Positions 1,055-40,878 of a DNA stretch of 64,000 nt are shown one piece after another. The translations under genes and the position numbers were made by a program. How positions within the stretch are numbered: position 1 is the stretch's first letter; each line of letters opens with the position of its first letter. Source of the stretch: a virus; the IMG/VR virus record IMGVR_UViG_3300044699_000112, positions 1-64,000 of that record. One strand, written 5' to 3'. The notes beneath the pieces are model-generated. The model searched no databases. It was given only the letters and a program-made list of their open reading frames with translations, and was not told where the DNA came from.

Positions 1055-1351
1055 TTGATGCAGGATTTGGCGATTTTGCGCAAACCGCGTATTGTGAGGG
1101 TTACGGGGGCGTATATGAACTCGAAGAAGGCGGTCTGCATCCGGTGCCGTGGAATCCATCGAGGGAGTACGTGCGGGCGGCCGCAGGCGGTGGTAAGGTT
1201 GCTCGAGGAGGCAGCGGCCTTGGACGCGGTGCTGGATCCGATCGAAGAAGCGATGTACAACGGGGAGCTCAAGGGGCGTGATGCGGTGAGGGCGTTTCGG
1301 GCGGCCTGGGAGAGCGTGTATGGGCCTCAGAAATGGAAGGTCGCTTTGTGA
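1055..1351 (+). CDS. Hypothetical protein (CxxC..H..C motif)
   Basis: 98-aa ORF with CIRCRGIHRGSTC followed by a helical C-terminus. Confidence 0.5.
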   Translation: MMQDLAILRKPRIVRVTGAYMNSKKAVCIRCRGIHRGSTCGRPQAVVRLLEEAAALDAVLDPIEEAMYNGELKGRDAVRAFRAAWESVYGPQKWKVAL

Positions 1352-1995
1352 GGCGTGCTTCTATAAGTTCTATACAGAATAATAGTGGTGCAACCATTGC
1401 ACCAGACGCGGTGCAACCATTGCACCAGACGGAGCCTTGGAAATCGCTCAAGGGTTTCGTTCAAAAACCGATCAAACTAATTCAGGATCCGACCGTTCAC
1501 CATGCGGCGAAATGTGTGTACGATGCGGTGGCGTATTTGGTGTGGAAGGGGAAGGGCGCGTGTGACGAGCCGGTGGAGGTGATCGCCTCCTGGTGCAATG
1601 TTTCGAGGCGGCAGACGCTGACGGCGCTGCGGGCGCTGACGCAGAAGGGGTATATATGGCGTACGGTCCGGGGTTATATGCAGCCAGACCGTTACACGCT
1701 GCCGGATGCGAAGGCCGAGGCGCCGGTATTGGCACCGGTGGCGAAGGTGCACAAAAAGGCGTGGGCGCCGTGTCAGAAGTGCGGGGCCAAGGCGCCGCCG
1801 TCGAAGTTTGGGTGCTGTCAGGCTGGGATGAGGGCGGAGAACCGGTTCCGGAAGTACCTGGAGGCAAAGAAGGAGCTTGGGACTGGGGCTACTAGGGCGC
1901 TGATCGCGGCGCAGATGAAGGCAAACGAGCCGGAGATGGTGCGGTTTGAGCGGCTGGCGCGGGAGCGGGCAAATTTGCAGGTGAAAACGGCCTGA
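1333..1995 (+). CDS. Winged helix-turn-helix DNA-binding protein with Cys cluster
   Basis: 'VEVIASWCNVSRRQTLTALRALTQKGYIWR' is a typical wHTH. CxxC...CC occurs C-terminally. The true start may be GTG at 1411. Confidence 0.7.
   Translation: MEGRFVRRASISSIQNNSGATIAPDAVQPLHQTEPWKSLKGFVQKPIKLIQDPTVHHAAKCVYDAVAYLVWKGKGACDEPVEVIASWCNVSRRQTLTALRALTQKGYIWRTVRGYMQPDRYTLPDAKAEAPVLAPVAKVHKKAWAPCQKCGAKAPPSKFGCCQAGMRAENRFRKYLEAKKELGTGATRALIAAQMKANEPEMVRFERLARERANLQVKTA
1387..1431. repeat. Tandem 22-bp direct repeat x2, each an internal palindrome (operator-like)
   Basis: GGTGCAA-cca-TTGCACC-agacg at 1387-1408 and 1410-1431. Confidence 0.8.
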
Positions 1996-2164
1996 TTTGT
2001 GATACGCTCGCCTCTGGGTTCAAAAGAGCCGCACGCATTTGCCCTGGGGATCACTCCTCCGGGGCTTTCGTGTTTTTGAGCGGGGTGTGATAGGCTCAAC
2101 GGTGTCTGGTTGGGAACCTCCTGTTAGGTTTGGTTTGTTTGTGGCATTTGGGTATTGGGCCGCA

Positions 2165-2210
2165 TGCGCCCCGGAGTTTACAGCCATTTTCTCCGGGGCG
2201 CACGTGTTTT
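2165..2210 (+). terminator. Rho-independent terminator-like hairpin
   Basis: TGCGCCCCGGAG / CTCCGGGGCGCA stem followed by cgtgtttt. Confidence 0.5.
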
Positions 2211-2257
2211 GGGGGGGATTCCTGGTGTAGAGTGGGGGGCTGAAGGAGAAGCATCCA

Positions 2258-2803
2258 ATGCCTCTTGTCCATGTTTCCGGCTGGTTACAGGCTTCTGAGC
2301 TTGAAGGCGGCCAGATTGACAACACACTTCCCTCGCGGCCTGCGCGGCCGGTGAGACCGGACAATTCCTTACCGGATAATCCCTACTATCCGGACAATTC
2401 CCTGCCTGGGTGGATTCAGAAGCCGATCGGGAAGCCTCCGGGGCGGCCGGTATTGCCGGATAACACGTTACCGCCTCCTGCGGCGCCGCCGCATCCGTGG
2501 CTGCCTGGGGGGTGGGTGCCGGTCGATCCGGGGTTCGGGAAGCCGCCGTTGTGGGGATGGATGCCGGGGCCGGATAACGGGTTACCGGCGCCGCCGGTGG
2601 GGCCTGGGCAGCCTCCGGGCGGTGGTGGCGGTGGTGGGGGCTCGTGGGTGCCGACCGATCCGGATTATGGCAAGCCGGTGCATCCGTGTCCTCCGCAGGC
2701 TGGTACCAAGCCGGTGCCGCCGGTGTGGATCTGGATTCCGGTGCAGCCGCCGGATCTGGCCAAGCCGGTGCCGTCGCCGACGCCCGAGCCCAAGTTGCGG
2801 TAA
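2258..2803 (+). CDS. Proline-rich repeat protein (PDNSLP/PDNTLP and WVPxDPxxGKP repeats)
   Basis: SD AAGGAG upstream, repeated peptide motifs, and a terminator downstream. Confidence 0.75.
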   Translation: MPLVHVSGWLQASELEGGQIDNTLPSRPARPVRPDNSLPDNPYYPDNSLPGWIQKPIGKPPGRPVLPDNTLPPPAAPPHPWLPGGWVPVDPGFGKPPLWGWMPGPDNGLPAPPVGPGQPPGGGGGGGGSWVPTDPDYGKPVHPCPPQAGTKPVPPVWIWIPVQPPDLAKPVPSPTPEPKLR

Positions 2804-2860
2804 GCTCAAGCCAACGACGTTTTCGATCTGTGACAGTCTTGTGATTTGTTATCCAGCGAG

Positions 2861-2898
2861 GCGCCCGCGGAGGAATCCCACACTCCGCGGGCGCTTTT
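2861..2898 (+). terminator. Rho-independent terminator
   Basis: GCGCCCGCGGAG / CTCCGCGGGCGC 12-bp stem plus TTTT. Confidence 0.7.
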
Positions 2899-2916
2899 GC
2901 GTTTCCCGGTGGCGTT

Positions 2917-2951
2917 TGGGGTACATTCTGGGGTACATTCTGGGGTACATT
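2917..2951. repeat. 12-bp tandem repeat x3 (TGGGGTACATTC)
   Basis: Directly visible in intergenic DNA; the third copy lacks the last base. Confidence 0.85.
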
Positions 2952-3015
2952 GATCCACCTGTTGGTGACATGAACGCCACGAAGGGCCCTTGGTGAATCA
3001 GACGCCGGGGCCCGC

Positions 3016-3066
3016 GTGGAACACTCGTGGAACAGTGCCAGTAAAAGCGTGGAACGCTTGTGGAAC
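3016..3066. repeat. GTGGAAC x4 in 11-bp helical phase
   Basis: Copies start at 3016, 3027, 3049 and 3060. Confidence 0.8.
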
Positions 3067-3142
3067 AAGGAGTAAGGCGCAAAAGCAGGAAAATCTGCCG
3101 CGGCGCTTCAGAAATGGCATGAATATCTGTACCGTGCCGGGG

Positions 3143-3328
3143 ATGATCGAGTTGACGCTCGAGTTCTCGCGGTCGACCTCGTGGTTTGTGGCGAAATCGA
3201 TCGTGGCCGTTACGAATTCGACGCGGGTGAGGCGGGGGACGTGCGTGGAAATGGCGGGCGGGGGCCGGTACGAGGTGATGGAGACGCCGCCGGAGGTGAT
3301 GGCGGCGATCGAGGAGGCGCTCAGTTGA
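3143..3328 (+). CDS. FlbD/SwrD-family small protein
   Basis: 'MIELT...WFVAKSIVAV...TCVEMAGGGRYEVMETPPEVMAAIE' follows the FlbD pattern (MIxLT...I..I...T.I.L..G..Y.V.E...EV...I). Confidence 0.6.
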   Translation: MIELTLEFSRSTSWFVAKSIVAVTNSTRVRRGTCVEMAGGGRYEVMETPPEVMAAIEEALS

Positions 3329-3615
3329 CCTCCAAGGCGCTCCAGGAGGCGTTGCGGCCGCGGGCTGAGGGAAATACCCGGCAGAACCTCCACACGTGCC
3401 GCAAGGGGCCCCTGCTGCTCCGGCACGGGGGGCCGTGTGAGCAGTGCGAGGCGGCCAAGTACCTGACCAAGGTGTTTTTCGGGCCGCGGGAGTGCCAGAA
3501 GGGGGTGCCGCACCTCTACGACGGGCCGGTGATCTCCGAGGCCAGCGGTTTGTGGAGCTCGAAGACGTGTTCGCGGTGCGGTAGACTCGCGATCACGGAC
3601 ACGGTATGGGAATGA
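3325..3615 (+). CDS. Hypothetical Cys/His-rich protein
   Basis: TTG start overlapping the previous stop; several CxxC motifs. Confidence 0.45.
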   Translation: MTSKALQEALRPRAEGNTRQNLHTCRKGPLLLRHGGPCEQCEAAKYLTKVFFGPRECQKGVPHLYDGPVISEASGLWSSKTCSRCGRLAITDTVWE

Positions 3616-3869
3616 CCCTCAACGAGGCGCTGGCGGCGGTGGTGGACCGGGTGCGGGCGCGCACTCTCTACACGGCCGACATCGAAACCGACCACGAGGG
3701 GGTACTTCTGGTGCATGTCAACGTGCCGATGGAGGACCACAAAAAGCTCGAGCACAAAAAGACGGGGCCGGTTTTGGCGGCGGCGCGCGAGGCGGCCCAA
3801 GAGCACGGGTTTAAGATTGCGGGGGGGCGGGCGAGTGCCCGCGGCATGGGGCTCCTGGTGGAGGTGTAA
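3606..3869 (+). CDS. Hypothetical protein
   Basis: Translationally coupled ORF with protein-like composition. Confidence 0.5.
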   Translation: MGMTLNEALAAVVDRVRARTLYTADIETDHEGVLLVHVNVPMEDHKKLEHKKTGPVLAAAREAAQEHGFKIAGGRASARGMGLLVEV

Positions 3870-31641: not shown

Positions 31642-34600
31642 TTGGCTATAAACGCGAACTCTATCGATCGAGCTCGGCAGGCCGGTTACAACGATGCCGA
31701 GATCATCGACCACATTGCCAGCCTGAAGGGCTACAAGGGCGTGCCCGAAGCACGCTCCGCGGGCTACTCCGACATGGAGATCCTCGGCCACCTGCGGACA
31801 CTCGAAGATCCCGTCAGTACGCCGACAGTGATACCTGGAGCGGAGAAGACCGGCACGCCCGGCATTGCCCCCACAACCCTGCCGAAGGGCCTGGGCGGCG
31901 GACCGGCCGGTTACCAGCCTCCGACCGAGGAGCCCTCGCCCTATGCACTCCCCGGCGCGGGCCTGACCGGCCGCCCCGGCATTCCGGAGGTAGAGCTCCC
32001 GGTGGGCCTCGGCGGCACCAAAGCTCCGTTCTCCACCGCCTACGATCCCTACAAGCGAGTCGGCCGCGCGCTCCCCAATCAGGTGTTCGGGGCGCCGCTG
32101 AAGACCGACGTGGGCGAGCTCGCCAAGCTCAAGGCCAAGGTGGCGCCTGGGTACTTGCCCGACGACGACACCGTTCTGCAAGGGTTCATGGGAGAGCCGA
32201 AGCCGGAGCCCCTATCCGAAGACCCAGGCTACGTAGAACGGATCCAGCACGGGCTTCGCGTAGGCTCCGAAGGAGTCGTATCGAGTGCGCTCAGCGGGGG
32301 CGAGGCCCTGGCCCGCCGCGCCGCCGTAGCACTTCCCAAGAAGTTCAAGCCTATCGCCGAAAGGGCTGAGTGGGAGCTCGCGCAGGCCAATGCCGGTAGA
32401 CCGGAAATGGAGCCAATGCCGGGCTCGAGCGTCCAGGAGCTCGCTGCGGACTCCGATCTCACTCTGAACAAAGTAGGCAAGTACGCTGTGGGATCTACGG
32501 CTCAGGCGATCCCGAGCATCGGGGCCACCGTGATTGCGTCCATGCTGCCGGGCGGCAAGATTGCCGGGCCTGCGCTTTCCTACCTGATGAGCGTGGGCGA
32601 GCTCTACGAGAACAACGTCAACAAGGGAGTCCACCCAGACGAAGCGGCCACGATCGCTGGACTAGGCGGCGGCCCGTCCGCCGCGCTGGACTACCTGGAG
32701 CCGTTCCGCATCAAGGCGGCCCTCACGGGCAAAACAACAAAGGCCCTCATTGAGGAGACGTACAAGAAACTGGGCATCCTGCGGCGGGCCGGTAAGGCGA
32801 CGGCCGAGGGCCTTGTCGAATCCGGCACCGAGATGGGCCAGGAGCTCATTGCGATTCTCTCTGAGTGGTACGGGACCGGGAAAGCCCCAGGCCTCAACGA
32901 GTCGCTCTGGCGGCTCGGCGAGTCTGGCGCCGGAGCGTTTGGCGCGGGCGGCATCGGCGGCGGAGTGCAGCAGGTCAGCGAGGCAAGGCACAACGCCGGT
33001 GCGCGGGCGTGGCAGGACTACCTGGAAAAGGAGAAGGCGGCCAGGGCAGGCGTCGCGCCTATGGCCCCTGGCGGCCCAGTCCCTGCCCCCGGAGCTCCCG
33101 CAGAGGCAGCGCCAGCCGAGGGGGAAGTGCCGCCGCCTGGAGCCGCGCCACCAGGAGCAGCCGCTGCGGGCCCGGCAGCCGATACGGCGCCGCCCAGGCC
33201 GCTCTTCGATAGCCCGGAGGACCTCTACCAGGACGCGACCCAGTTTGCCGGTGGCTTCCGCCAACTCGGCGTGACCGCGCTTTCCCAGAAGTACGGCATC
33301 ACCAAGGACGAGGCACATGCGATCCTCGAGCGTTTTGTTGAGGATGGCCTTTTTGCCGCTAAGCCGCTGAAGGGCGGCGGTGTCAGTTACGTGAACCTCG
33401 CGTTACAGCGCGAAGCCCGCGAGATCGACCCGGCTACCGGCCAGCGTATCCGTTCGCCGATCACCAAGAAGGGGGCCCTCGAAGAAGCAGCCGGGCAGTT
33501 CATCCCTCCAGGCGAGGGCGCGATCGCCCCCGGCGAGGGCCCGGCCGTAGAGGACGAAGAGGCTCCCCTGGCGGCCGCGCCGGTCATCGAGCAGCCGCGG
33601 ACCGAGCCGCCACCACTACCCACTCAACAAGCGCCTCCGCCCGCTCAGCAAGAGGCGCCGCCCCAGGAAGCCGGGCCGCAGCCTGACCAAGCCGACCTGG
33701 ACATGATCTACAGCGCCCCTTTGACCCAGGAGCAACAGGCGTGGGCCGTCGAGTTGCTGGGCCAGGGCCACTCTGTCGAAGACGCGATGGAGATCGCGCA
33801 CCGCGGCGAGGAAGCTCCGGCCGCGCCAGCACCAGTCCAAGCAAAGGAGGAGGCACCACAGAGACCAGAACCACTGCCGTCAGCATCGGAGCAGGCACCT
33901 CCGCCTGCTCCGGCGGCACCAGAGGTCCAGCAGGAACCCCTGGCAGCCGCCAAGCTACCCGAGGAGCAGCAGGCGCCTGCTGCCCAGGCTCCGGCGCCCG
34001 CGGTCCAAGAACCCTTAGAAGCAGCCAAGCCGCCCGAGCAGGCCGCGGCGCCGACAGGTACGCCATTCGACCAAGCGAAAGAGCACGCTAGGGGCAATAA
34101 AGCCATCAAGGCAGATGAGCTTATCCAAGGCTTCGGCCTCACGGCAGACGAGGCCCACAACGTCCTCTGGGATTTGTACCCGGCTCGTATGCGCAAGGAG
34201 AAGGCGAAGGCCATCGCCGCCGAGAGGCGCAGCGCCACCATCGAGGCCAGGAAGGCAAAGGCTGGCCAGCCGGAGCAGAAGCCAGGGCCGACCCCAGCGC
34301 CCTGGGAGATGACTCTGGAAGAGGTAAACCAGACCGGGTACATCGCCCGCGACGTTAACGCCGGGAACATGCCAATCGTGCGGCCCGCCACGATAGATGC
34401 TGGAACCGCGGCGTCGAACGCTTCCGAGCATAAGCGCGTAGTGGCCGAGGCAGTCGCTCAGGGTAAGCCGGTCCCGGCGAAGGTCCTGGCCGAATACCCT
34501 GACTTAGTTGCCATCGATCCGGCAGTTAAGGCCGCCATCAAGAGGCGCGAACGGGAGCGCGCAAAGGCTGCCCAGGCCGCGGCGCCCAAGACTGAACAGC

Positions 34601-37600
34601 AGGAGCCCTTGGCGGCGGCTAAGCCGCCCGAGCAGCAGCAGGCGCCACCTCCCCCAACAACCCAGGTTGCGGCCCCGTCAACTCAGGTTGAGCAGCCATT
34701 GGCTGCCGCCAAACCGATCGAGAAGGAGGCACCAAGTGGCACAGAAGCCAAAGCCGAGGAAGATTTTGCCCTCCCCGCCGGGGATGAGTCGACAGGCGGT
34801 CAAGCACTTCAACGTGGCCCAACTGGCGGCCGAGAAGGCGCGCCTGGAGGGGAAAGACGAGAAGGAGGCGTTCAAGGCCGCACTGCGGAAGCAGTGGAAG
34901 GAAAAGGCGAACTAGACTTCAGCGACGTACCTCTGAAGGCGGTCGCCAAGCCGAGCAGGGAAGGCTTCCTCGAACGGCTGAAGGCGGGCGATGTCAGGGG
35001 TATGTCGGTCGAGGTAATGGGCGCCGTCGCCAGGGGCCTCGTTAAAGCGGAGGACGCCGCGGCTCACATGGTCAAGACCTACGGCGCCAAGGCGAAGGCT
35101 TACGCCAAAGACGTTGCCGCCCAGGTCCAGGAGTGGGAGCAGAACCCGGCGCGCCTCGAAGAGATGGAGGCGTCGACCGCCCTGCCGAAGGGCAAGAACA
35201 AGACGGTTGACCCGATCACCGGCCTCGCCGTTACCGGCTACAACAACGCCATCAAGGACCCGAGCGCCTTTGCCAAGGCGATCGCCCTGATGAACAAGTA
35301 TGTGAACTTCGCCGACATTAACGAGGCGACGCCCGAGGCGACGGCCGAGAAGATGATCCAGCGGATCGTCGACAATCTGCTGTTCCTCCACGACAAGTAC
35401 AAGGAGCTCGGCTTCTCCGAGCGGGCACGTCTCTGGTACGACGGCGGGCGCAAGAAGGTCCTGGCGAACGCCGAAGAGTATGGCATCAACGAATTCCAGT
35501 CCGCCGCGGTGTTAGCCGTGTTCTCGCCGGAGAAGGACTGGTTCCAGAACGTCGACATGGCGCGGCGCATGCTCGAGTGGTGGAAGAACCGCAAGACGTT
35601 GAAGTGGACTCCGCAGATGGACGCCATCTACGTCAACAAGATCCTGCCAGCCAAGAGGAATCAGGACAAGAACACCGCCAAGAAGCGCGAGGCCAAGTAC
35701 CTGAAGGACCGCGCCGAGTTCCCGGCCAAGGTGGCCGAGTGGCGCAAAGCCAATCGCGAGGCGAGGCTCGCCGGGACCGCGAGACCGAAGAGGCCGAAGA
35801 GGCCGGAGCGGAAGCCGTTCGAGCCCAGCACCAAGGTCACCGATGCGCTCGCCGCCATCCAGGGCAAGGGCGCCAGCGAAATCAAGAGCACCTACCAGCA
35901 GGCCGTCTGGTTCCGGCTCTGGGACGAAGCGCATAACAGCCGGAACTACCAGATCATCAGCCCCGAGGGCGAGTACACCGGCCTCGCCATGACCGAGGCG
36001 AAAGAGGGCAAGGTCGGCAAGGGCGGCAAGATCGGCAAGGCGAAGGAAGCTAAGCCTGCCAAGGTGGCATGGTCGAGCTACAACCCGATGGTCAAGGCCC
36101 TGATGGTCCTCAAGGACGGCTCCTTTGAGAACATCAGCAGGCAGGTCGGCCAGCGGCACAAGGTCCGGAACTTTTACAACAACCTCCTCGACCCTGAGAA
36201 CCCCAACGGACACGTCACCTCCGACACACATGCCGTAGCGGCTGGCCTGATGCGGCCGCTGGGCGGCTCGGCGCTCGAGGTCGAGCACAATCTCGGCAAG
36301 GGCGTGGCCTCGGCCCGGACCGGCGAATCGGGCACCTACTGGATGTTCGCCGAAGCCTACCGGCGCGCCGCGCGCGAGCGCCATCTCCTGCCGCGGGAGA
36401 TGCAGTCGATCACCTGGGAAGCGGTGCGCGGGCTCTACAAAAATCTGAAGAGTAAGGCCAATAAAGATCGCGTTGTCGAGATCTGGAATGAAGTGAATAG
36501 TGGTAAAATTACTCCAGGTGAAGCACGTGAAAAGATCTATAAAGAGTTCAACGGAATCGACACGCCAGCCTGGGCCGGAAGCGGAACGGGACGAGGGCGG
36601 GATACTGCAGTTGATGAGGGAAGAGGGGGCGCCAAGGACGAGGAAGGAGTTCTTCGCTTACGCCTACCCGGACCTGGATCCGGAGGAGCCTCTGTCGGTG
36701 GAGGAGGAGGCGGATCTCCCCGAGGACTTGCAGCACGAGTCAATGAGGGAATCCGAAAAGTAGGCGATGCGCTCCGCGCGAGGCATCCGGCCAGTACGAA
36801 TGCCGCTATCGGCGCTTCCCTGGCTGGCTCGGATTACACGTTCAAGACCGGCCCCGGCCAGACCGGCACGGTGTACGCAAACCCGGCGGGCATCGAGTTC
36901 ATCGGCCACCTCACCAACGATCCGCATATCGGCGGAATAAACCTACCGGGCAAATCAGTCGATAACGTTCTCACCTTCATCGACAGCTTCGTCAACGGCC
37001 CGAACCCGAACCGGGCCCAGCTTGCCAAGCTGCAGCCGCTCTACGAGGGGATGGAGAAGTGGCGGCAGGCGAACCCTGGAACAGATGTCTCGCTGAACTT
37101 CGCCGTCCTCGACAATAAGCGCCCCTTCGCCTGGACCCGCCAGACCGCACGCGAAGAGCTCATCCACGGCTTCCAGCGCCTCAAGCAGGTCACCCGTGCC
37201 GCCCGCGAGACCATCCTGAAGACGCCGGTGTTTGAGAAAGCCCGCCTGGATCTGATCCGGCAGGGGTACGGTGACGACGTTGAGATCCGGCCCGGCGACA
37301 CCGCCGACGAGAAGGCCCAGAAGCACTTCATCGCCTGGATGGAGATCACCGCCAAGGTGCTCTCCGGGGACACGCTGGGGCTCACCATCTCCGAGCGCGA
37401 GGACGTGGCCTATGCGTACCGGGAGGCGCTGATCGCCGAGCATGGTGATGACGCCGTTCTCGTTTTCCGCTACCTGAAAGCCGGGTCCGTGAAGGATGTT
37501 TTCCTCGGCAAGAAGCTGCCGGGAGAGGGACTGCAGCGGGCACAGGCTGACCTGCAAGAGGGAGAGGCTGAACTGCAGCGGCTGCTGAAAGAACTACAGC

Positions 37601-40600
37601 AGATACTGGATGAGGAGAAGGCGAAGGGGGGTCCGCTGGCCGACCTCGACTTCGCCGAAGTCGACCTGCCTCACCTGACTGAGCCGGAAGGAGCCCTGAG
37701 GGCCCGCCAGCCCCAGCAGCCCCCGCAGCAGCCACAGACCACCCAGGCCCTGGCCACCACCACCCAGCAGCAGCAAGGCCAGCAGCAGAGCCAGCAGGGG
37801 CCGCAGCAGCCGCGAGGCGCCGGGCCCGGCGGCACCGGCCCCACTGTCGCCCAACGCTTCGACCAGACCAACGCGGCGGCGGAGCACGCGCGCCAGTCTG
37901 ACGAGAAGACGCGCATGGAAAAGTTCAAGGAGGGCATGAAGTTCATTGGCACGGCCTTCACGCGGCAGTTCCACCATATCCCCGCCGGTGCACTCTATGC
38001 CGAGTTCAAGCAGAAGCTGAACTTCGTTTCGAAGAGCCAGGGCAACGCGATCCACAAGGCGGCCCAGGCCATCATCGACCAGTTAGAGAAGCTCGACCCG
38101 GACGAGTACACTCAGTTCCTCCACGTGGTCCTCTACGACGATCTGGCCGCGCGCGTGATCCAGTCGATCAAAGAGAAAAAGCCGATACTCGCCAAGGACC
38201 TGCCGTTGGGCATCCAGGATGCCCGCGAGGTCATCAACTTCAAGACCGAGGCCCGCAACCGCGTCCGCGGCAATCCCAAGATCGTCGAGGCGCTCCGGCA
38301 GCGCAAGGCCATGTGGGACAAGATCAAGCCCGAGTACGTCGCGGCCATGCGCAGGGCTGGCGTCGACGTGTCCAAGGCCGTGGCGCGCAAGGACTACTTC
38401 CGCCATCGCGTGATCAAGCACCAGAAGGCCAAGGAACTGATCGGCGGAGGCGGCACCGGCGCCGGTCAACGCTTCAAGCTGCCCACGGCGCGTAGCTGGA
38501 TGAAGAAGGCCGAGGTCAACGCGAACACCTACTCGCTCGACTACATCCGCTCGGAGTTTGAAGTGCTCTCGGAGATGATGTACGACACCGAGCGCGCCAA
38601 CTTCATCGGCTGGCTCAAGAACGACTCCGGGCACAACATCTCTTCGCAACTGAAGCGGATGGCAGCGGCGCACAACAAGGCCGAAATCATGCCGACCTTC
38701 GCCCGCATGGCGCGCCACTACAACCAGAAGAATCCCCGCGCCCCCAGGATGACCGCCGAGATGGCCTACCAGAAGGTCATGAAGATGCGGCCGCGGGATC
38801 CAAGCTGGCGCACGCGCGTCACCAAGCGGATGGCAGGCGCCGAGTACGTGGGGAGCCTCGAGGCGGCGTATAACAAACTGACGCTGCCCAACGGCAACAA
38901 GGCGCTCGATACCCACGCCCTCTATCAGGCCAACGAGAAGGACCACTTCTTCCTGGCCGCGACCATCCCCGATTCGCTGGCGGCGGCGATCGAGGCCAAC
39001 GGCCAGGGGCGGGTCACGGCCGACAAGATCCGGAAGATCAAAGCCAAGGGCGCCCGCCAGGGGCAGATGGTGCTGCCGCGCGAAGTCATCGAGACCATGA
39101 AGGAGTTCATGCAGCCCCCGAGCACCAAGTGGGGGCAGTTTGTCGACAAGTGGAGCCGCAAGCCGCTGGCGTGGTGGAAGCAGTCCAAGCTAATCCATCC
39201 GGTGGCGGTGATCAAGTACAACCTGCGGAACCTCTCAGGCGACCTCGAGCGCGTGCTGATCACCAACCCGTACGCCCTGAAGCACGTGGGGCGGTCGATG
39301 GATGAGATTCGCAAGTTCATGAAGACCGGCCACCCGCCGAGCCCGGAGTTCGAGGCATGGTGGGAGCGCGGCGGCATGGACGCCAACCTCCAAGTGGCCG
39401 AGATCGGCGAGGTCAACCGGCTGCAGAAGCTCGTCCACCTCAAACTGAAGGATCCGAAACTGGGGCGGACCGAGAAGGGATTCGACAAGGCTGGTAAAGC
39501 CTGGGACGCCGTATGGAATACCACGAGGAAGATGACCGACTTCCGCGAAGGGATCCTGCGCTACGCCACGTTCCTGGAATATCAGAAGCAGATCGCGGCC
39601 AGCGGGACCGGCAAGCCGAACAACTTCGGGGCCTCGATCCGCGAGGAAGTGATGGCGCTCCGGAACATGGACGACCGGGCGTACAAACTCTCGAACGACC
39701 TGATGCTCGCCTACGACGAGGTGAGCGTGGCCGGTCAGACGCTGCGCCGTCACTTCATCCCCTTCTGGTCGTTCCAGGAGAAGAACCTCGGGGCCTACAA
39801 GCGCATGGTGGTCAACTCCTACAAGGACGGGAGGACTTCGGCGGCGATCGGCTATGCCGCGCTCGGCGCCAGCGCCTCGGCCCTGCGCGTGGGCCTCTGG
39901 ACCGCGGCGAAGATCGGCAAAACCCTGACCCTGGCGATGGCGCTCAAGGCACTCACCGAGATCTGGAACAACTATGTGATGGACGACGAGGAGGAGGATC
40001 TCCCCGAGGGCGTCAAGAAGTCGACCCACCTCATCCTGGGCCGGGACTCCAACGGCAAGGTGATCGCGTTCACACGCCTGGGCACGGCCGACGACATCCT
40101 CGAATGGGGCGGCCTCGAAGCGGCGCCCTACTACGTCAGGGAATTCCTCAACAACCGCATGACCTACGAGGATCTGGCCAAGGAGATCGCGCTCCGGCCG
40201 TTTGGCATCCCGCTGCCAATCAAACCGGCCATCAACAAGGTTGCGCAGAGCATCCATCCGGGGATCAAGACCACCGCCGAGTACGTCAGCGGCCGCGCTT
40301 GGTTCCCGAACGTCTTCGATCAGCGCGAGATTCGCGATCGCTACGAGTACATCGCCCGCGAGCTCGGCATGACCGCCGTCTACAAGGCAGCCGCCAGGAA
40401 GCCGCAGCCGAAGTTCTGGACGCCCGAGCGGGTCCTCGACCTGATGGTCTACCGCTACGATCCCAAGGAAACGCACTACAACTCCTTCAAGTACGACAAG
40501 GTGGCCAAGTGGGGCGCCGAGCATGGCGCCGACCCAGGAGGGGGCCTCTCGCAGAAGAAGGCGGCCGCGGCGCTCTACGACCTCCGCATGGCCGTCCGGT

Positions 40601-40878
40601 ACAACGATGACCGGGCGCGCGATGCGGCCCTCGTTGCGTACGGGGAGGCGGGCGGCACCCAGCAGAACCTGAAGAAGTCGATCGAGCGGCTCCATCCGCT
40701 CGGGACGTTGAAGAAGGCTCTGTGGAAGGACTTCGAGAAGTCGCTGAGCAAACCGGAAGCCGCTCAATTGAAAAAGGCTATACAGTTCTGGGAGGAAAAC
40801 TTCCACTCCAAGGTGGCGCAGATTGAAGGCGCCGCTTCCCGGCAAGGTCTGCCGGAGAAAAGAAAGCGAGGAAAGTGA
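31642..40878 (+). CDS. Giant (3078 aa) polyvalent ejection protein
   Basis: N-terminal ARxAGYxDxEI repeats; Gly/Ala membrane region; FtsK-gamma-like wHTH; HhH-GPD-like domain (KVRNF...SDTH); zincin-like EELIH; helical C-terminal region of the large-polyvalent-protein type. Confidence 0.85.
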   Translation: MAINANSIDRARQAGYNDAEIIDHIASLKGYKGVPEARSAGYSDMEILGHLRTLEDPVSTPTVIPGAEKTGTPGIAPTTLPKGLGGGPAGYQPPTEEPSPYALPGAGLTGRPGIPEVELPVGLGGTKAPFSTAYDPYKRVGRALPNQVFGAPLKTDVGELAKLKAKVAPGYLPDDDTVLQGFMGEPKPEPLSEDPGYVERIQHGLRVGSEGVVSSALSGGEALARRAAVALPKKFKPIAERAEWELAQANAGRPEMEPMPGSSVQELAADSDLTLNKVGKYAVGSTAQAIPSIGATVIASMLPGGKIAGPALSYLMSVGELYENNVNKGVHPDEAATIAGLGGGPSAALDYLEPFRIKAALTGKTTKALIEETYKKLGILRRAGKATAEGLVESGTEMGQELIAILSEWYGTGKAPGLNESLWRLGESGAGAFGAGGIGGGVQQVSEARHNAGARAWQDYLEKEKAARAGVAPMAPGGPVPAPGAPAEAAPAEGEVPPPGAAPPGAAAAGPAADTAPPRPLFDSPEDLYQDATQFAGGFRQLGVTALSQKYGITKDEAHAILERFVEDGLFAAKPLKGGGVSYVNLALQREAREIDPATGQRIRSPITKKGALEEAAGQFIPPGEGAIAPGEGPAVEDEEAPLAAAPVIEQPRTEPPPLPTQQAPPPAQQEAPPQEAGPQPDQADLDMIYSAPLTQEQQAWAVELLGQGHSVEDAMEIAHRGEEAPAAPAPVQAKEEAPQRPEPLPSASEQAPPPAPAAPEVQQEPLAAAKLPEEQQAPAAQAPAPAVQEPLEAAKPPEQAAAPTGTPFDQAKEHARGNKAIKADELIQGFGLTADEAHNVLWDLYPARMRKEKAKAIAAERRSATIEARKAKAGQPEQKPGPTPAPWEMTLEEVNQTGYIARDVNAGNMPIVRPATIDAGTAASNASEHKRVVAEAVAQGKPVPAKVLAEYPDLVAIDPAVKAAIKRRERERAKAAQAAAPKTEQQEPLAAAKPPEQQQAPPPPTTQVAAPSTQVEQPLAAAKPIEKEAPSGTEAKAEEDFALPAGDESTGGQALQRGPTGGREGAPGGERREGGVQGRTAEAVEGKGELDFSDVPLKAVAKPSREGFLERLKAGDVRGMSVEVMGAVARGLVKAEDAAAHMVKTYGAKAKAYAKDVAAQVQEWEQNPARLEEMEASTALPKGKNKTVDPITGLAVTGYNNAIKDPSAFAKAIALMNKYVNFADINEATPEATAEKMIQRIVDNLLFLHDKYKELGFSERARLWYDGGRKKVLANAEEYGINEFQSAAVLAVFSPEKDWFQNVDMARRMLEWWKNRKTLKWTPQMDAIYVNKILPAKRNQDKNTAKKREAKYLKDRAEFPAKVAEWRKANREARLAGTARPKRPKRPERKPFEPSTKVTDALAAIQGKGASEIKSTYQQAVWFRLWDEAHNSRNYQIISPEGEYTGLAMTEAKEGKVGKGGKIGKAKEAKPAKVAWSSYNPMVKALMVLKDGSFENISRQVGQRHKVRNFYNNLLDPENPNGHVTSDTHAVAAGLMRPLGGSALEVEHNLGKGVASARTGESGTYWMFAEAYRRAARERHLLPREMQSITWEAVRGLYKNLKSKANKDRVVEIWNEVNSGKITPGEAREKIYKEFNGIDTPAWAGSGTGRGRDTAVDEGRGGAKDEEGVLRLRLPGPGSGGASVGGGGGGSPRGLAARVNEGIRKVGDALRARHPASTNAAIGASLAGSDYTFKTGPGQTGTVYANPAGIEFIGHLTNDPHIGGINLPGKSVDNVLTFIDSFVNGPNPNRAQLAKLQPLYEGMEKWRQANPGTDVSLNFAVLDNKRPFAWTRQTAREELIHGFQRLKQVTRAARETILKTPVFEKARLDLIRQGYGDDVEIRPGDTADEKAQKHFIAWMEITAKVLSGDTLGLTISEREDVAYAYREALIAEHGDDAVLVFRYLKAGSVKDVFLGKKLPGEGLQRAQADLQEGEAELQRLLKELQQILDEEKAKGGPLADLDFAEVDLPHLTEPEGALRARQPQQPPQQPQTTQALATTTQQQQGQQQSQQGPQQPRGAGPGGTGPTVAQRFDQTNAAAEHARQSDEKTRMEKFKEGMKFIGTAFTRQFHHIPAGALYAEFKQKLNFVSKSQGNAIHKAAQAIIDQLEKLDPDEYTQFLHVVLYDDLAARVIQSIKEKKPILAKDLPLGIQDAREVINFKTEARNRVRGNPKIVEALRQRKAMWDKIKPEYVAAMRRAGVDVSKAVARKDYFRHRVIKHQKAKELIGGGGTGAGQRFKLPTARSWMKKAEVNANTYSLDYIRSEFEVLSEMMYDTERANFIGWLKNDSGHNISSQLKRMAAAHNKAEIMPTFARMARHYNQKNPRAPRMTAEMAYQKVMKMRPRDPSWRTRVTKRMAGAEYVGSLEAAYNKLTLPNGNKALDTHALYQANEKDHFFLAATIPDSLAAAIEANGQGRVTADKIRKIKAKGARQGQMVLPREVIETMKEFMQPPSTKWGQFVDKWSRKPLAWWKQSKLIHPVAVIKYNLRNLSGDLERVLITNPYALKHVGRSMDEIRKFMKTGHPPSPEFEAWWERGGMDANLQVAEIGEVNRLQKLVHLKLKDPKLGRTEKGFDKAGKAWDAVWNTTRKMTDFREGILRYATFLEYQKQIAASGTGKPNNFGASIREEVMALRNMDDRAYKLSNDLMLAYDEVSVAGQTLRRHFIPFWSFQEKNLGAYKRMVVNSYKDGRTSAAIGYAALGASASALRVGLWTAAKIGKTLTLAMALKALTEIWNNYVMDDEEEDLPEGVKKSTHLILGRDSNGKVIAFTRLGTADDILEWGGLEAAPYYVREFLNNRMTYEDLAKEIALRPFGIPLPIKPAINKVAQSIHPGIKTTAEYVSGRAWFPNVFDQREIRDRYEYIARELGMTAVYKAAARKPQPKFWTPERVLDLMVYRYDPKETHYNSFKYDKVAKWGAEHGADPGGGLSQKKAAAALYDLRMAVRYNDDRARDAALVAYGEAGGTQQNLKKSIERLHPLGTLKKALWKDFEKSLSKPEAAQLKKAIQFWEENFHSKVAQIEGAASRQGLPEKRKRGK
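34736..34915 (+). CDS. Nested +1-frame gene A inside the giant protein (59 aa, basic helical)
   Basis: SD AAGGAGG (34723-34729) 6 nt before GTG. Codon bias moves to the +1 frame while the outer frame becomes a Gly-rich linker. Confidence 0.65.
   Translation: MAQKPKPRKILPSPPGMSRQAVKHFNVAQLAAEKARLEGKDEKEAFKAALRKQWKEKAN
36527..36763 (+). CDS. Nested +1-frame gene B inside the giant protein (78 aa, acidic C-terminal half)
   Basis: Extended -10 TGGTAAAAT (36501-36509), SD AGGTGA (36516-36521), GTG at 36527, high-GC3 codons in the +1 frame. Confidence 0.7.
   Translation: MKRSIKSSTESTRQPGPEAERDEGGILQLMREEGAPRTRKEFFAYAYPDLDPEEPLSVEEEADLPEDLQHESMRESEK

What the first reader, a model, noticed from the sequence alone, without database searches (positions are those of the whole stretch)
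35400..36763. Injected DNA-glycosylase-like domain with a nested, separately promoted acidic gene: candidate effector/immunity pair hidden inside one ORF
Seen in sequence: the giant ejection protein contains 'WYDGG...SAAVLAVFSPEKDWFQN...HKVRNFYNNL...VTSDTHAVA...YRRAA...PREMQSITW'. Where this domain ends, the DNA turns AT-rich (~36440-36545). It shows an extended -10 box TGGTAAAAT (36501-36509), SD AGGTGA (36516-36521) and a +1-frame GTG at 36527 opening a 78-aa ORF ending ...ILQLMREEGAPRTRKEFFAYAYPDLDPEEPLSVEEEADLPEDLQHESMRESEK. Over this stretch the genome's G/C-ending codons are in the +1 frame (gag ttc ttc gct tac gcc tac ccg gac ctg). The outer frame stays open but degrades to a Gly-rich linker with rare codons (gga gtt ctt cgc tta). 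Established knowledge: K...DTH is the catalytic arrangement of HhH-GPD/EndoIII glycosylases, and small acidic proteins such as Ugi are DNA-mimic glycosylase inhibitors. Inference: the phage injects a DNA-attacking or base-removing enzyme and encodes its inhibitor overprinted directly behind it, so enzyme and antidote move as one cassette and the antidote can be expressed independently (for example in a lysogen). Standard gene callers would miss it.
Basis: partly seen in the sequence, partly recalled or inferred. Interest (0 to 1): 0.9.

Follow-up and report, generated by a model that had tools for sequence, protein, structure and literature searches.

The report
Partner gene nested behind glycosylase-like domain
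Inside a 3078-codon phage gene, a domain with the fold of DNA base-excision enzymes is followed by a real, conserved 78-codon gene written one base out of frame, whose small acidic protein is predicted to sit in that domain's active-site cleft.

Summary
The giant ORF (31642-40878) carries a ~445-aa conserved module (35257-36591; Pfam sees only DUF7178). Its AlphaFold model (pLDDT 88.8) matches HhH-GPD DNA glycosylases best (Z 9.2; 16 of the top 20 rows). An invariant Lys and an Asp-Thr-His lie in the endonuclease III arrangement.

The +1 ORF (GTG 36527 to stop 36763) is a real gene:
- An HMM finds it once in each of 80 related phage loci (GC 0.40-0.65).
- dN/dS is 0.19 in its frame and 2.5 in the outer frame.
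- All 48 distinct relatives have an SD and ATG at the same place.
- One relative has it as a separate gene, which rules out a frameshift tail.
- An independent soil-metagenome contig reproduces the stretch without indels.

Co-folding supports binding (ipSAE 0.74, best control 0.03; the mark was reached by 58 of 80 solved complexes and 2 of 110 mismatched pairs). The interface includes the putative catalytic Lys and Asp.

Inhibitor function, enzyme activity, the separate promoter and lysogen expression are not shown. The small gene is the evolutionary constant and the outer read-through is labile, so this is an embedded/overlapped/separated layout like Rz/Rz1. The scan's earlier notes describe the same layout on other DNA (unchecked AI notes).

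The parts
31642..40878 (+). Giant outer ORF (3078 aa), a polyvalent-type protein of a phage structural module
   Evidence: ORF list and translation. The only Pfam hit is DUF7178. There are 1374 giant homologues, many also carrying ART-PolyVal, LPD22, LPD38, SLT or glucosaminidase domains. Tail-fibre genes lie just downstream.
35257..36591 (+). Conserved HhH-GPD-like module (aa 1206-1650 of the giant protein); the Pfam DUF7178 matches at 35416-35589 and 36082-36432 lie inside it
   Evidence: Alignment A3 of 40 sequences. AF2 model with pLDDT 88.8 and pTM 0.86. VIA-align best hits are HhH-GPD glycosylases: 3n0u Z 9.2, rmsd 3.9, 185 aligned; 16 of the top 20 rows. DUF7178 stretches.
36160..36162 (+). 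Codon of the invariant Lys (aa 1507; K302 of the model) in ..HKVRNFYNN..
   Evidence: Invariant in 40 sequences. Corresponds to K of GRKTAN in endonuclease III. Part of the predicted interface.
36223..36231 (+). Codons of the invariant Asp-Thr-His (aa 1528-1530; D323 T324 H325 of the model)
   Evidence: Invariant in 40 sequences. Same triplet as VDTH of endonuclease III. D323 and T324 are in the predicted interface.
36430..36550 (+). AT-rich tract that still encodes the last helices of the module in the outer frame and holds the translation-initiation region of the nested gene
   Evidence: GC 0.40-0.48. Outer GC3 is 0.40-0.47 here. In 20 high-GC relatives outer GC3 falls from ~0.78 to 0.34 just upstream of the nested start.
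36501..36509 (+). TGGTAAAAT, an extended -10-like motif (function not shown)
   Evidence: Read. GGTAAAAT from rare codons is shared with L006 and L009. The two-hexamer promoter scan found nothing in 36000-37100.
36516..36521 (+). Shine-Dalgarno-like AGGTGA, 5 nt before the GTG
   Evidence: Read. Relatives have GAGG(A/G)G 6-8 nt before their ATG.
36527..36763 (+). Nested +1-frame gene, 78 aa plus stop; acidic (pI 4.49, net charge -10), no Cys
   Evidence: HMM hit E 1.5e-21, the only one in the 64-kb window. Start is homologous to the ATG of 48 relatives at +118..+148 nt from the Q codon of QSITW; the window's is at +124. dN/dS 0.19. Family of 1797 clusters at 50% identity. AF2 model has four short helices and a disordered N-terminus.
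36560..36790 (+). Outer-frame Gly/Arg/Ser-rich linker read across the nested gene (dual-coding stretch)
   Evidence: Outer GC3 0.30-0.50. Outer-frame dN/dS 2.5 and amino-acid identity 0.39, against 0.61 in the +1 frame. The outer frame still aligns weakly with homologues and stays open.

Best explanation
The giant structural-module protein carries a divergent HhH-GPD-type (endonuclease III / OGG-like) module, probably a base-excision or related nucleic-acid enzyme with a Lys and an Asp in the catalytic positions. The 3' end of the module's coding region contains the ribosome-binding site and start of a separate small gene in the +1 frame (36527-36763). In this phage the giant ORF reads straight through that gene, using its nucleotides as a floppy Gly/Arg/Ser linker to the C-terminal half. 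The 78-aa acidic, helical product is made as its own polypeptide, translationally linked to the enzyme. It binds in the cleft between the module's lobes, over the Lys and Asp. The most likely role is a built-in keeper or inhibitor that holds the enzyme inactive in the producing cell. Shown: the gene is real, and it always accompanies the module in this subfamily. Supported in silico only: the fold and the binding. Inferred: enzyme activity, inhibition, virion packaging and ejection.
For: Gene reality:
- The +1 ORF is found by HMM in 80 of 80 related loci with enough sequence, once each, at GC 0.40-0.65.
- In a 29-codon core, dN/dS is 0.19 in the +1 frame and 2.5 in the outer frame; nucleotide differences at +1 positions 1/2/3 are 0.30/0.23/0.52.
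- The per-site entropy table shows the selected frame switching at about +186 nt.
- All 48 distinct relatives have an ATG at +118..+148, created by a T-ending outer codon (AAT 28, GAT 15, TAT 4, CAT 1). Upstream N/D codons in 19 high-GC loci end in T only 21% of the time.
- A GAGG-type SD lies upstream.
- In L008 the gene is fully separate; in 9 loci it is only partly overlapped.
- All of the 150 best hits listed, out of 1797 clusters with E <= 0.001, are small proteins of 42-315 aa; none is a giant fusion.

Fold:
- Model pLDDT 88.8.
- Best structural matches are Tm1821 OGG (Z 9.2), QNG1 (8.1), Pa-AGOG (7.3), EndoIII, Mag1, OGG1, MagIII, MutY and MIG.
- K..N...N....P....DTH is in register with endonuclease III.

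Binding:
- ipSAE 0.74 in three runs against a best control of 0.03. The mark was reached by 58 of 80 solved complexes and 2 of 110 mismatched pairs.
- The runs agree in at least 73% of contacts; partner pLDDT is at least 71.
- The interface includes module residues 302-303 and 323-324 and the conserved residues 22-29, 43-49 and 57-63 of the small protein.
- Family median pI is 4.4.
Against: - No sequence-level link to HhH-GPD: Pfam PF00730 is not hit even at E<=10; hhalign against endonuclease III gives E 0.18-0.38; Foldseek finds nothing.
- Z 6-9 is modest for an all-helical model, and the tool warns of this.
- QNG1, a nucleoside rather than DNA glycosylase, scores as well as most DNA glycosylases.
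- The more distant DUF7178 protein of roseophage CRP-738 has no such partner gene, so the enzyme can exist without it.
- A few family members are basic, with pI up to 10.2.
- Co-folding cannot tell an inhibitor from an activating subunit or chaperone.
- Virion or ejection status rests only on gene context.
Confidence: 0.6

Rival explanations
1. The nested gene is real and its product binds the module, but as an obligate subunit, folding or packaging chaperone, or activator (an Rz/Rz1-like two-component machine) rather than an inhibitor.
For: Same evidence for gene reality and binding. Strict co-occurrence and translational linkage fit any stoichiometric partner. Some members are not acidic.
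Against: The predicted seat covers the putative catalytic Lys and Asp, which suits occlusion better than activation. Distant DUF7178 proteins do without it.
Confidence: 0.28
2. The module is not a DNA glycosylase. It uses the HhH-GPD scaffold for something else, such as non-catalytic DNA binding or protection of the entering genome, or hydrolysis of a nucleoside or nucleotide as QNG1 does. The small protein then regulates that function.
For: QNG1/DUF2419 scores Z 8.1 with 214-215 residues aligned, the longest alignments in the list. There is no significant sequence match to PF00730.
Against: Most top hits are DNA glycosylases. The Lys and the Asp-Thr-His are invariant and spaced as in endonuclease III.
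Confidence: 0.3
3. The +1 peptide is not a separate protein but a C-terminal extension added to the module by programmed +1 (or -2) ribosomal frameshifting.
For: The +1 frame opens within the last codons of the module. Co-folding would also score high for a cis-attached tail.
Against: An ATG with an SD is present in all 48 distinct relatives, often as the first codon after a stop. In L008 the small ORF starts 5 nt after the outer stop, in another frame, with no overlap. None of the 150 best database hits is a long fusion. No conserved slippery site was seen.
Confidence: 0.03
4. There is no nested gene. The pattern is a by-product of a Gly-rich (GGA) linker patch acquired from a low-GC donor, which reads as Glu-rich in +1, or of compensating indel errors in the assembly.
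For: GGA GGA reads GAG GAG in +1. The preceding 120 nt are AT-rich in all codon positions.
Against: The +1 product is conserved with conservative substitutions at 30-45% identity across loci of GC 0.40-0.65, with dN/dS 0.19. An independent metagenome contig is identical over 36200-36878.
Confidence: 0.02

Closest known systems
Rz/Rz1 two-component spanin genes of phage lambda and relatives (Kongari et al. 2018, PMC6139136, read)
   Same: A small gene lies in the +1 frame inside a larger gene. One family occurs in embedded, overlapped and separated architectures: spanins 182/228/118; here 56/9/1 of 66 distinct loci. The part of the outer protein that overlaps is variable and disorder-prone. The two products are thought to bind each other. 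Gene callers often miss the small gene.
   Different: No membrane or lipoprotein signals (the window's small protein has no Cys), and the gene is not in a lysis cassette. The outer gene is a giant multi-domain structural-module protein. The partner is predicted to sit in an enzyme cleft, not to form a periplasm-spanning complex.
HhH-GPD superfamily DNA glycosylases (endonuclease III, Tm1821 OGG, Pa-AGOG, OGG1, MutY, AlkA/Mag) and QNG1/DUF2419
   Same: Two-lobed helical fold (Z 6-9.2). A hairpin with an invariant Lys is followed by a Pro/Gly-rich loop and an invariant Asp-Thr-His, as in GRKTAN...VDTH of endonuclease III.
   Different: No significant sequence or profile similarity. About 375-445 aa, with extra N-terminal helices and, in this phage, a long helical insert. 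Embedded in a giant phage protein. No Fe-S cluster motif seen. Activity unknown.
Protein inhibitors of DNA glycosylases: Ugi (phage PBS1/2), p56 (phi29), SAUGI (from my own knowledge, not re-read here)
   Same: Small, acidic, phage-encoded proteins that would block the DNA-binding cleft of a base-excision enzyme.
   Different: Those inhibit the host's family-1 uracil-DNA glycosylase and are alpha/beta or beta-rich. Here the target would be the phage's own HhH-GPD-like module, and the protein is all-helical with no structural match. I know of no protein inhibitor of an HhH-GPD enzyme.
Toxin-immunity cassettes (colicin/Im, CdiA-CT/CdiI, polymorphic toxins) and polyvalent proteins of phages and conjugative elements (Iyer et al. 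2017, PMC5512222)
   Same: The effector domain is followed immediately by a small cognate binder gene. Homologues are giant multi-effector proteins with ART-PolyVal and LPD domains.
   Different: The partner is encoded inside the effector's own ORF in another frame. The polyvalent-protein paper mentions no glycosylase domain, overlapping gene or frameshift. Toxicity of the module is not shown.

Membership tests
Pfam DUF7178 (PF23802) | Score above the curated gathering threshold (27 bits) | tested here: met
   66 bits for the whole protein and 73.5 bits for the module. All 40 members of A3 match.
HhH-GPD superfamily | Two-lobed all-helical glycosylase fold | tested here: met
   VIA-align wide search: 3n0u Z 9.2 (rmsd 3.9, 185 of 209 aligned); 16 of the top 20 rows are HhH-GPD members or QNG1. 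Caveats: Z is modest for a helical model, and Foldseek found nothing.
HhH-GPD superfamily | Helix-hairpin-helix followed by a Gly/Pro-rich loop and an invariant catalytic Asp; Lys in the hairpin for bifunctional enzymes | tested here: met
   G298, K302, N305, N309, P313, D323, T324 and H325 are invariant in 40 sequences. Same order and similar spacing (K to D is 21, against 18) as [10 protein letters not shown]...P...VDTH of E. coli Nth. The best, though non-significant, hhalign path puts K on K and DTH on DTH. A residue-level structural superposition could not be obtained.
HhH-GPD superfamily | Significant sequence or profile match to PF00730 or a member | tested here: not met
   No PF00730 hit at E<=10 in any of 40 members. 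hhalign against Nth and an Nth alignment gives E 0.18-0.38. PDB sequence search gives only noise.
HhH-GPD superfamily | N-glycosylase or AP-lyase activity | not testable with these tools
   Needs enzyme assays.
Polyvalent proteins (Iyer et al. 2017) | Several unrelated effector domains in one very large phage or plasmid polypeptide | tested here: inconclusive
   At 3078 aa, only DUF7178 is recognised by Pfam in this copy. Homologues carry ART-PolyVal, LPD22, LPD38, SLT, glucosaminidase and GNAT domains.
Embedded gene pairs of the Rz/Rz1 (spanin) kind | Small gene in an alternative frame inside a larger one; the family is also found overlapped and separated | tested here: met
   56 embedded, 9 partly overlapped and 1 separate among 66 distinct loci, compared with PMC6139136.
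Embedded gene pairs of the Rz/Rz1 (spanin) kind | Lipoprotein signal (lipobox Cys) in the small protein; transmembrane partner; lysis cassette | tested here: not met
   The window's 78-aa product has no Cys. Its neighbours are tail-fibre genes. It works like such a pair but is not a spanin.
Ugi/p56/SAUGI-type glycosylase inhibitors | Small acidic protein | tested here: met
   pI 4.49, net charge -10; family median pI 4.4.
Ugi/p56/SAUGI-type glycosylase inhibitors | Characteristic alpha/beta fold and family-1 UDG as target | tested here: not met
   The AF2 model is all-helical. No structural match in PDB or BFVD. The predicted target is an HhH-GPD-like module.
Toxin-immunity / effector-inhibitor cassettes | Cognate small protein binds the effector domain | tested here: inconclusive
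   Co-folding supports binding (0.74 against best control 0.03; the mark was reached by 58 of 80 solved and 2 of 110 mismatched pairs). It does not show binding, and neither toxicity nor neutralisation has been tested.

The most novel reading that the evidence does not exclude
A large, unnamed family of small proteins (at least 1797 clusters at 50% identity) are dedicated protein inhibitors of an HhH-GPD-type base-excision enzyme that phages deliver with their DNA. This would be the first protein inhibitor known for that superfamily. More generally, giant polyvalent phage proteins would carry a keeper gene hidden in the +1 frame of the linker behind each effector domain; a second conserved nested ORF lies at 34784-34915 in this same gene.
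Probability: 0.35. Interest if true: 0.85.

Novelty: new variant of a known kind. Interest (0 to 1): 0.7.

Why it matters
- It assigns a fold, and candidate catalytic residues, to DUF7178, a domain found in more than a thousand giant phage proteins.
- It adds a large protein family to phage gene catalogues. The family has no Pfam or PHROG entry, and annotation misses it whenever it is embedded.
- It gives a clean natural example of dual coding: purifying selection visibly jumps from one frame to the other within a few codons.
- It makes a concrete hypothesis testable, namely that a phage enzyme is packaged with a built-in removable inhibitor.
- If the small protein does block an HhH-GPD enzyme, it would be a new type of glycosylase inhibitor, as useful a tool as Ugi has been.

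Tried and rejected
DNA of relatives was obtained with the search for related loci instead.
- blastn of the region against the phage collection found nothing. tblastn found three distant roseophage records.
- First working idea: a Gly-rich GGA linker patch from a low-GC donor that mimics a +1 coding signal. Rejected.
- Programmed frameshift was rejected.
- Assembly indels were rejected.
- The sigma-70 promoter scan of 36000-37100 gave 0 sites.
- The small protein has no family in Pfam or PHROGs, and its model has no fold match in PDB or BFVD.
- Foldseek of the module against PDB gave nothing with E<=0.001.
- The PDB sequence search gave only noise.
- hhalign against endonuclease III was not significant. 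The third homologue search returned only 86-99% identical Nth proteins, so that profile was shallow.
- The genome search could not reach diverse HhH-GPD genes from a W handle.
- No RNA holder was listed among the public runs, so expression and a transcription start could not be examined.
- Pfam and PHROGs on upstream neighbours gave nothing useful.
- The careful tree did not finish, so a quick unrooted tree was used and the ancestral architecture is not resolved.
- Literature searches for DUF7178 and for HhH-GPD protein inhibitors in phages found nothing relevant.
Full report
**What is there.**
The window belongs to a 74,233-bp viral record rated complete. ORF 31642-40878 (+) encodes 3078 aa. 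Pfam recognises only DUF7178, in two stretches at 35416-35589 and 36082-36432. PHROGs gives an unnamed family.
- Every sequence detail in the finding is correct: the peptide motifs, the GC dip to 0.40-0.48 at 36400-36549, TGGTAAAAT at 36501-36509, AGGTGA at 36516-36521, and GTG 36527 opening a 78-codon +1 ORF that ends at 36763.
- The giant ORF has GC1/2/3 = 0.66/0.46/0.81. Over 36427-36786 its GC3 is 0.30-0.50. Over 36562-36786 its first position, which is the third position of the +1 frame, is 0.77-0.87.

**Is the +1 ORF a gene?**
My first idea was a compositional artefact: a GGA-rich Gly linker from a low-GC donor, which reads as Glu in +1. Comparative data reject this.
- The giant protein has 1374 large homologues, whose outer frame runs through a similar low-complexity linker.
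- L006 is only ~43% identical in protein here. It shows the same fall of outer GC3 and a +1 ORF whose product aligns with the window's, with conservative substitutions.
- An HMM of the small protein finds it exactly once in each of 80 loci with enough sequence (the two loci without a hit are cut short), and once in the whole 64-kb window. The loci span GC 0.40-0.65.
- In a 29-codon ungapped core of 48 sequences, NG86 dN/dS is 0.19 in the +1 frame and 2.5 in the outer frame. Amino-acid identity is 0.61 against 0.39. Nucleotide differences fall at +1 positions 1/2/3 as 0.30/0.23/0.52. The upstream module shows the opposite, ordinary pattern in the outer frame.
- A per-site table for 14 loci shows outer third positions varying freely up to about +180 nt. 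After that they are frozen, while outer first positions vary.

**Separate polypeptide, not a frameshift tail.**
- All 48 distinct relatives have an ATG in the +1 frame at +118..+148 nt from the Q codon of QSITW. The window's GTG 36527 is at +124.
- The ATG is made by a T-ending outer codon (AAT 28, GAT 15, TAT 4, CAT 1), although in 19 high-GC loci only 21% of upstream N/D codons end in T.
- A GAGG-type Shine-Dalgarno lies 6-8 nt upstream.
- Among 66 distinct loci the gene is embedded in 56. In 41 of these the outer stop lies within 60 nt after it, and in 15 the outer ORF runs on, as here. It is partly overlapped in 9 and separate in 1 (L008, where it starts 5 nt after the outer stop in another frame).
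- A profile search of 1.84 billion representatives finds 1797 clusters. The best 150 are all 42-315 aa, with no giant fusions. In the 90% identity database, 381 called proteins exist, all listed as 'hypothetical'.
- There is no Pfam or PHROG family.
- On a quick unrooted tree of the module, the architecture changed at least 8 times while the small gene stayed. So the small gene is the constant, and the read-through of the outer ORF is the labile feature.
- The window's sequence is reproduced with 0 differences and 0 gaps over 36200-36878 by a contig from another soil-metagenome run.

**What the upstream domain is.**
- The conserved module is larger than the Pfam model: ~375 aa in relatives and 445 aa here (35257-36591) because of a helical insert.
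- With a 40-sequence alignment, AlphaFold2 gives pLDDT 88.8 and pTM 0.86.
- Foldseek finds nothing in the PDB.
- The exhaustive VIA-align search puts HhH-GPD enzymes on top: Tm1821 8-oxoG glycosylase (Z 9.2, rmsd 3.9, 185 aligned), QNG1/DUF2419 (8.1), Pa-AGOG (7.3), then endonuclease III, Mag1, OGG1, MagIII, NTHL1, MutY, MIG and ROS1. That is 16 of the top 20 rows; the rest match only the long-helix insert.
- Z is modest for a helical protein, but the family consistency is strong.
- Invariant residues G298, K302, N305, N309, P313 and D323-T324-H325 follow the order of [10 protein letters not shown]...P...VDTH in E. coli endonuclease III.
- Sequence methods do not reach significance, although the best hhalign path puts Lys on Lys and DTH on DTH.
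- I therefore file the module as HhH-GPD-like in fold and motif. Its activity is unknown, and a QNG1-like or non-catalytic role is not excluded.

**Do the two bind?**
- Co-folding the module (A3) with the small protein (A2) gave ipSAE 0.74, 0.73 and 0.74, against a best control of 0.03.
- The mark was reached by 58 of 80 solved complexes and 2 of 110 mismatched pairs. The runs share at least 73% of contacts, and partner pLDDT is at least 71.
- This supports binding but does not show it.
- The interface includes module residues 302-303 and 323-324 (the Lys and Asp) and the helices around them. On the small protein it includes the conserved segments 22-29, 43-49 and 57-63.
- Alone, the small protein models as four short helices after a disordered N-terminus (pLDDT 72), with no structural match.
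- It is acidic (pI 4.49, net -10; family median pI 4.4), though a few members are basic.

**Promoter.**
- The two-hexamer scan finds no promoter.
- In 14 related loci the synonymous sites of (C/T)TA CAA TAT are frozen. They form TACAAT 36 nt before the ATG, from rare codons in 55-65% GC genomes.
- The window, L006 and L009 share GGTAAAAT, also from rare codons.
- This fits either an internal -10 element or selection for an unstructured initiation region. No RNA data were available.

**Limits.**
- The distant DUF7178 gene of roseophage CRP-738 has no such partner.
- Virion or ejection status is inferred from tail-fibre neighbours and from the domain company kept by homologues.

**Comparison.**
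- The layout is the Rz/Rz1 situation: embedded, overlapped and separated architectures with a +1 frame (PMC6139136). Here, however, it applies to an enzyme module and a soluble acidic binder, so it is not a spanin.
- Functionally it resembles effector-immunity cassettes and phage glycosylase inhibitors such as Ugi, but the fold and the target differ.
- The polyvalent-protein paper (PMC5512222) mentions no glycosylase domain or overlapping gene, and no paper holds 'DUF7178'.
- Earlier notes of this scan describe the same layout in other phage genomes. They are unchecked AI notes, and I count them only as agreement.

**Verdict.**
- The nested gene is real (about 0.95).
- The fold is HhH-GPD-like (about 0.75).
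- The two proteins bind (about 0.6).
- The small protein has an inhibitor or keeper role (about 0.4).
- A separate promoter is present (about 0.3).

Noticed in passing
window 34784-34915 (dip of outer GC3 over 34642-34971): A second +1-frame ORF lies in the same giant gene: 43 aa from an ATG, helical-looking, inside a Gly-rich outer linker. tblastn finds it at 59-64% identity in L004, L005 and L006, each time in the +1 frame of the giant ORF. It is probably another real nested gene.
   Followed up: partly
window 33772-33981 and 33052-33171: Further stretches of the giant ORF where outer GC3 drops below 0.6 while outer position 1 is 0.8-0.97. They may be only Ala/Pro/Glu-rich repeats or further dual-coding segments.
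   Followed up: no
L011-type loci, +90..+98 nt from the Q codon of QSITW (e.g. L011 about 1933-1941): Three consecutive synonymous sites are frozen at rare codons (C/T)TA CAA TAT in 14 distinct loci of 55-65% GC. They form TACAAT 36 nt upstream of the nested gene's ATG. This is a candidate internal -10 element.
   Followed up: partly
L008 (IMGVR_UViG_3300030329_001031), about 2020-2621: An extra ~145-aa segment is inserted between the end of the module and the stop of the outer ORF. The small gene follows as a separate gene 5 nt after the stop. L008's nearest relative L010 has the partly overlapped layout.
   Followed up: partly
L091 = Roseobacter phage CRP-738 MZ892992.1, gp40 (locus 1187-3694): A cultured phage with a DUF7178 protein of 835 aa, lying two genes after the portal gene and before the coat gene. 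It has no detectable partner ORF in any frame. It could serve as a natural partner-free control.
   Followed up: partly
H3, Rhodobacteraceae phage LS06-2018-MD07 OP947163.1, 2322-2972: Here the DUF7178-like match lies under a CDS annotated 'methyltransferase', which suggests fusion of the module to a methyltransferase domain in that phage.
   Followed up: no
window 36000-37000: The stretch, or most of it, is held by contigs of soil-metagenome runs from several different studies. Eight runs hold at least half of the sampled words. The three laid runs with a share of 0.81-0.86 (X5, X6, X7) have identical contigs here. The phage therefore seems widespread in soil.
   Followed up: partly
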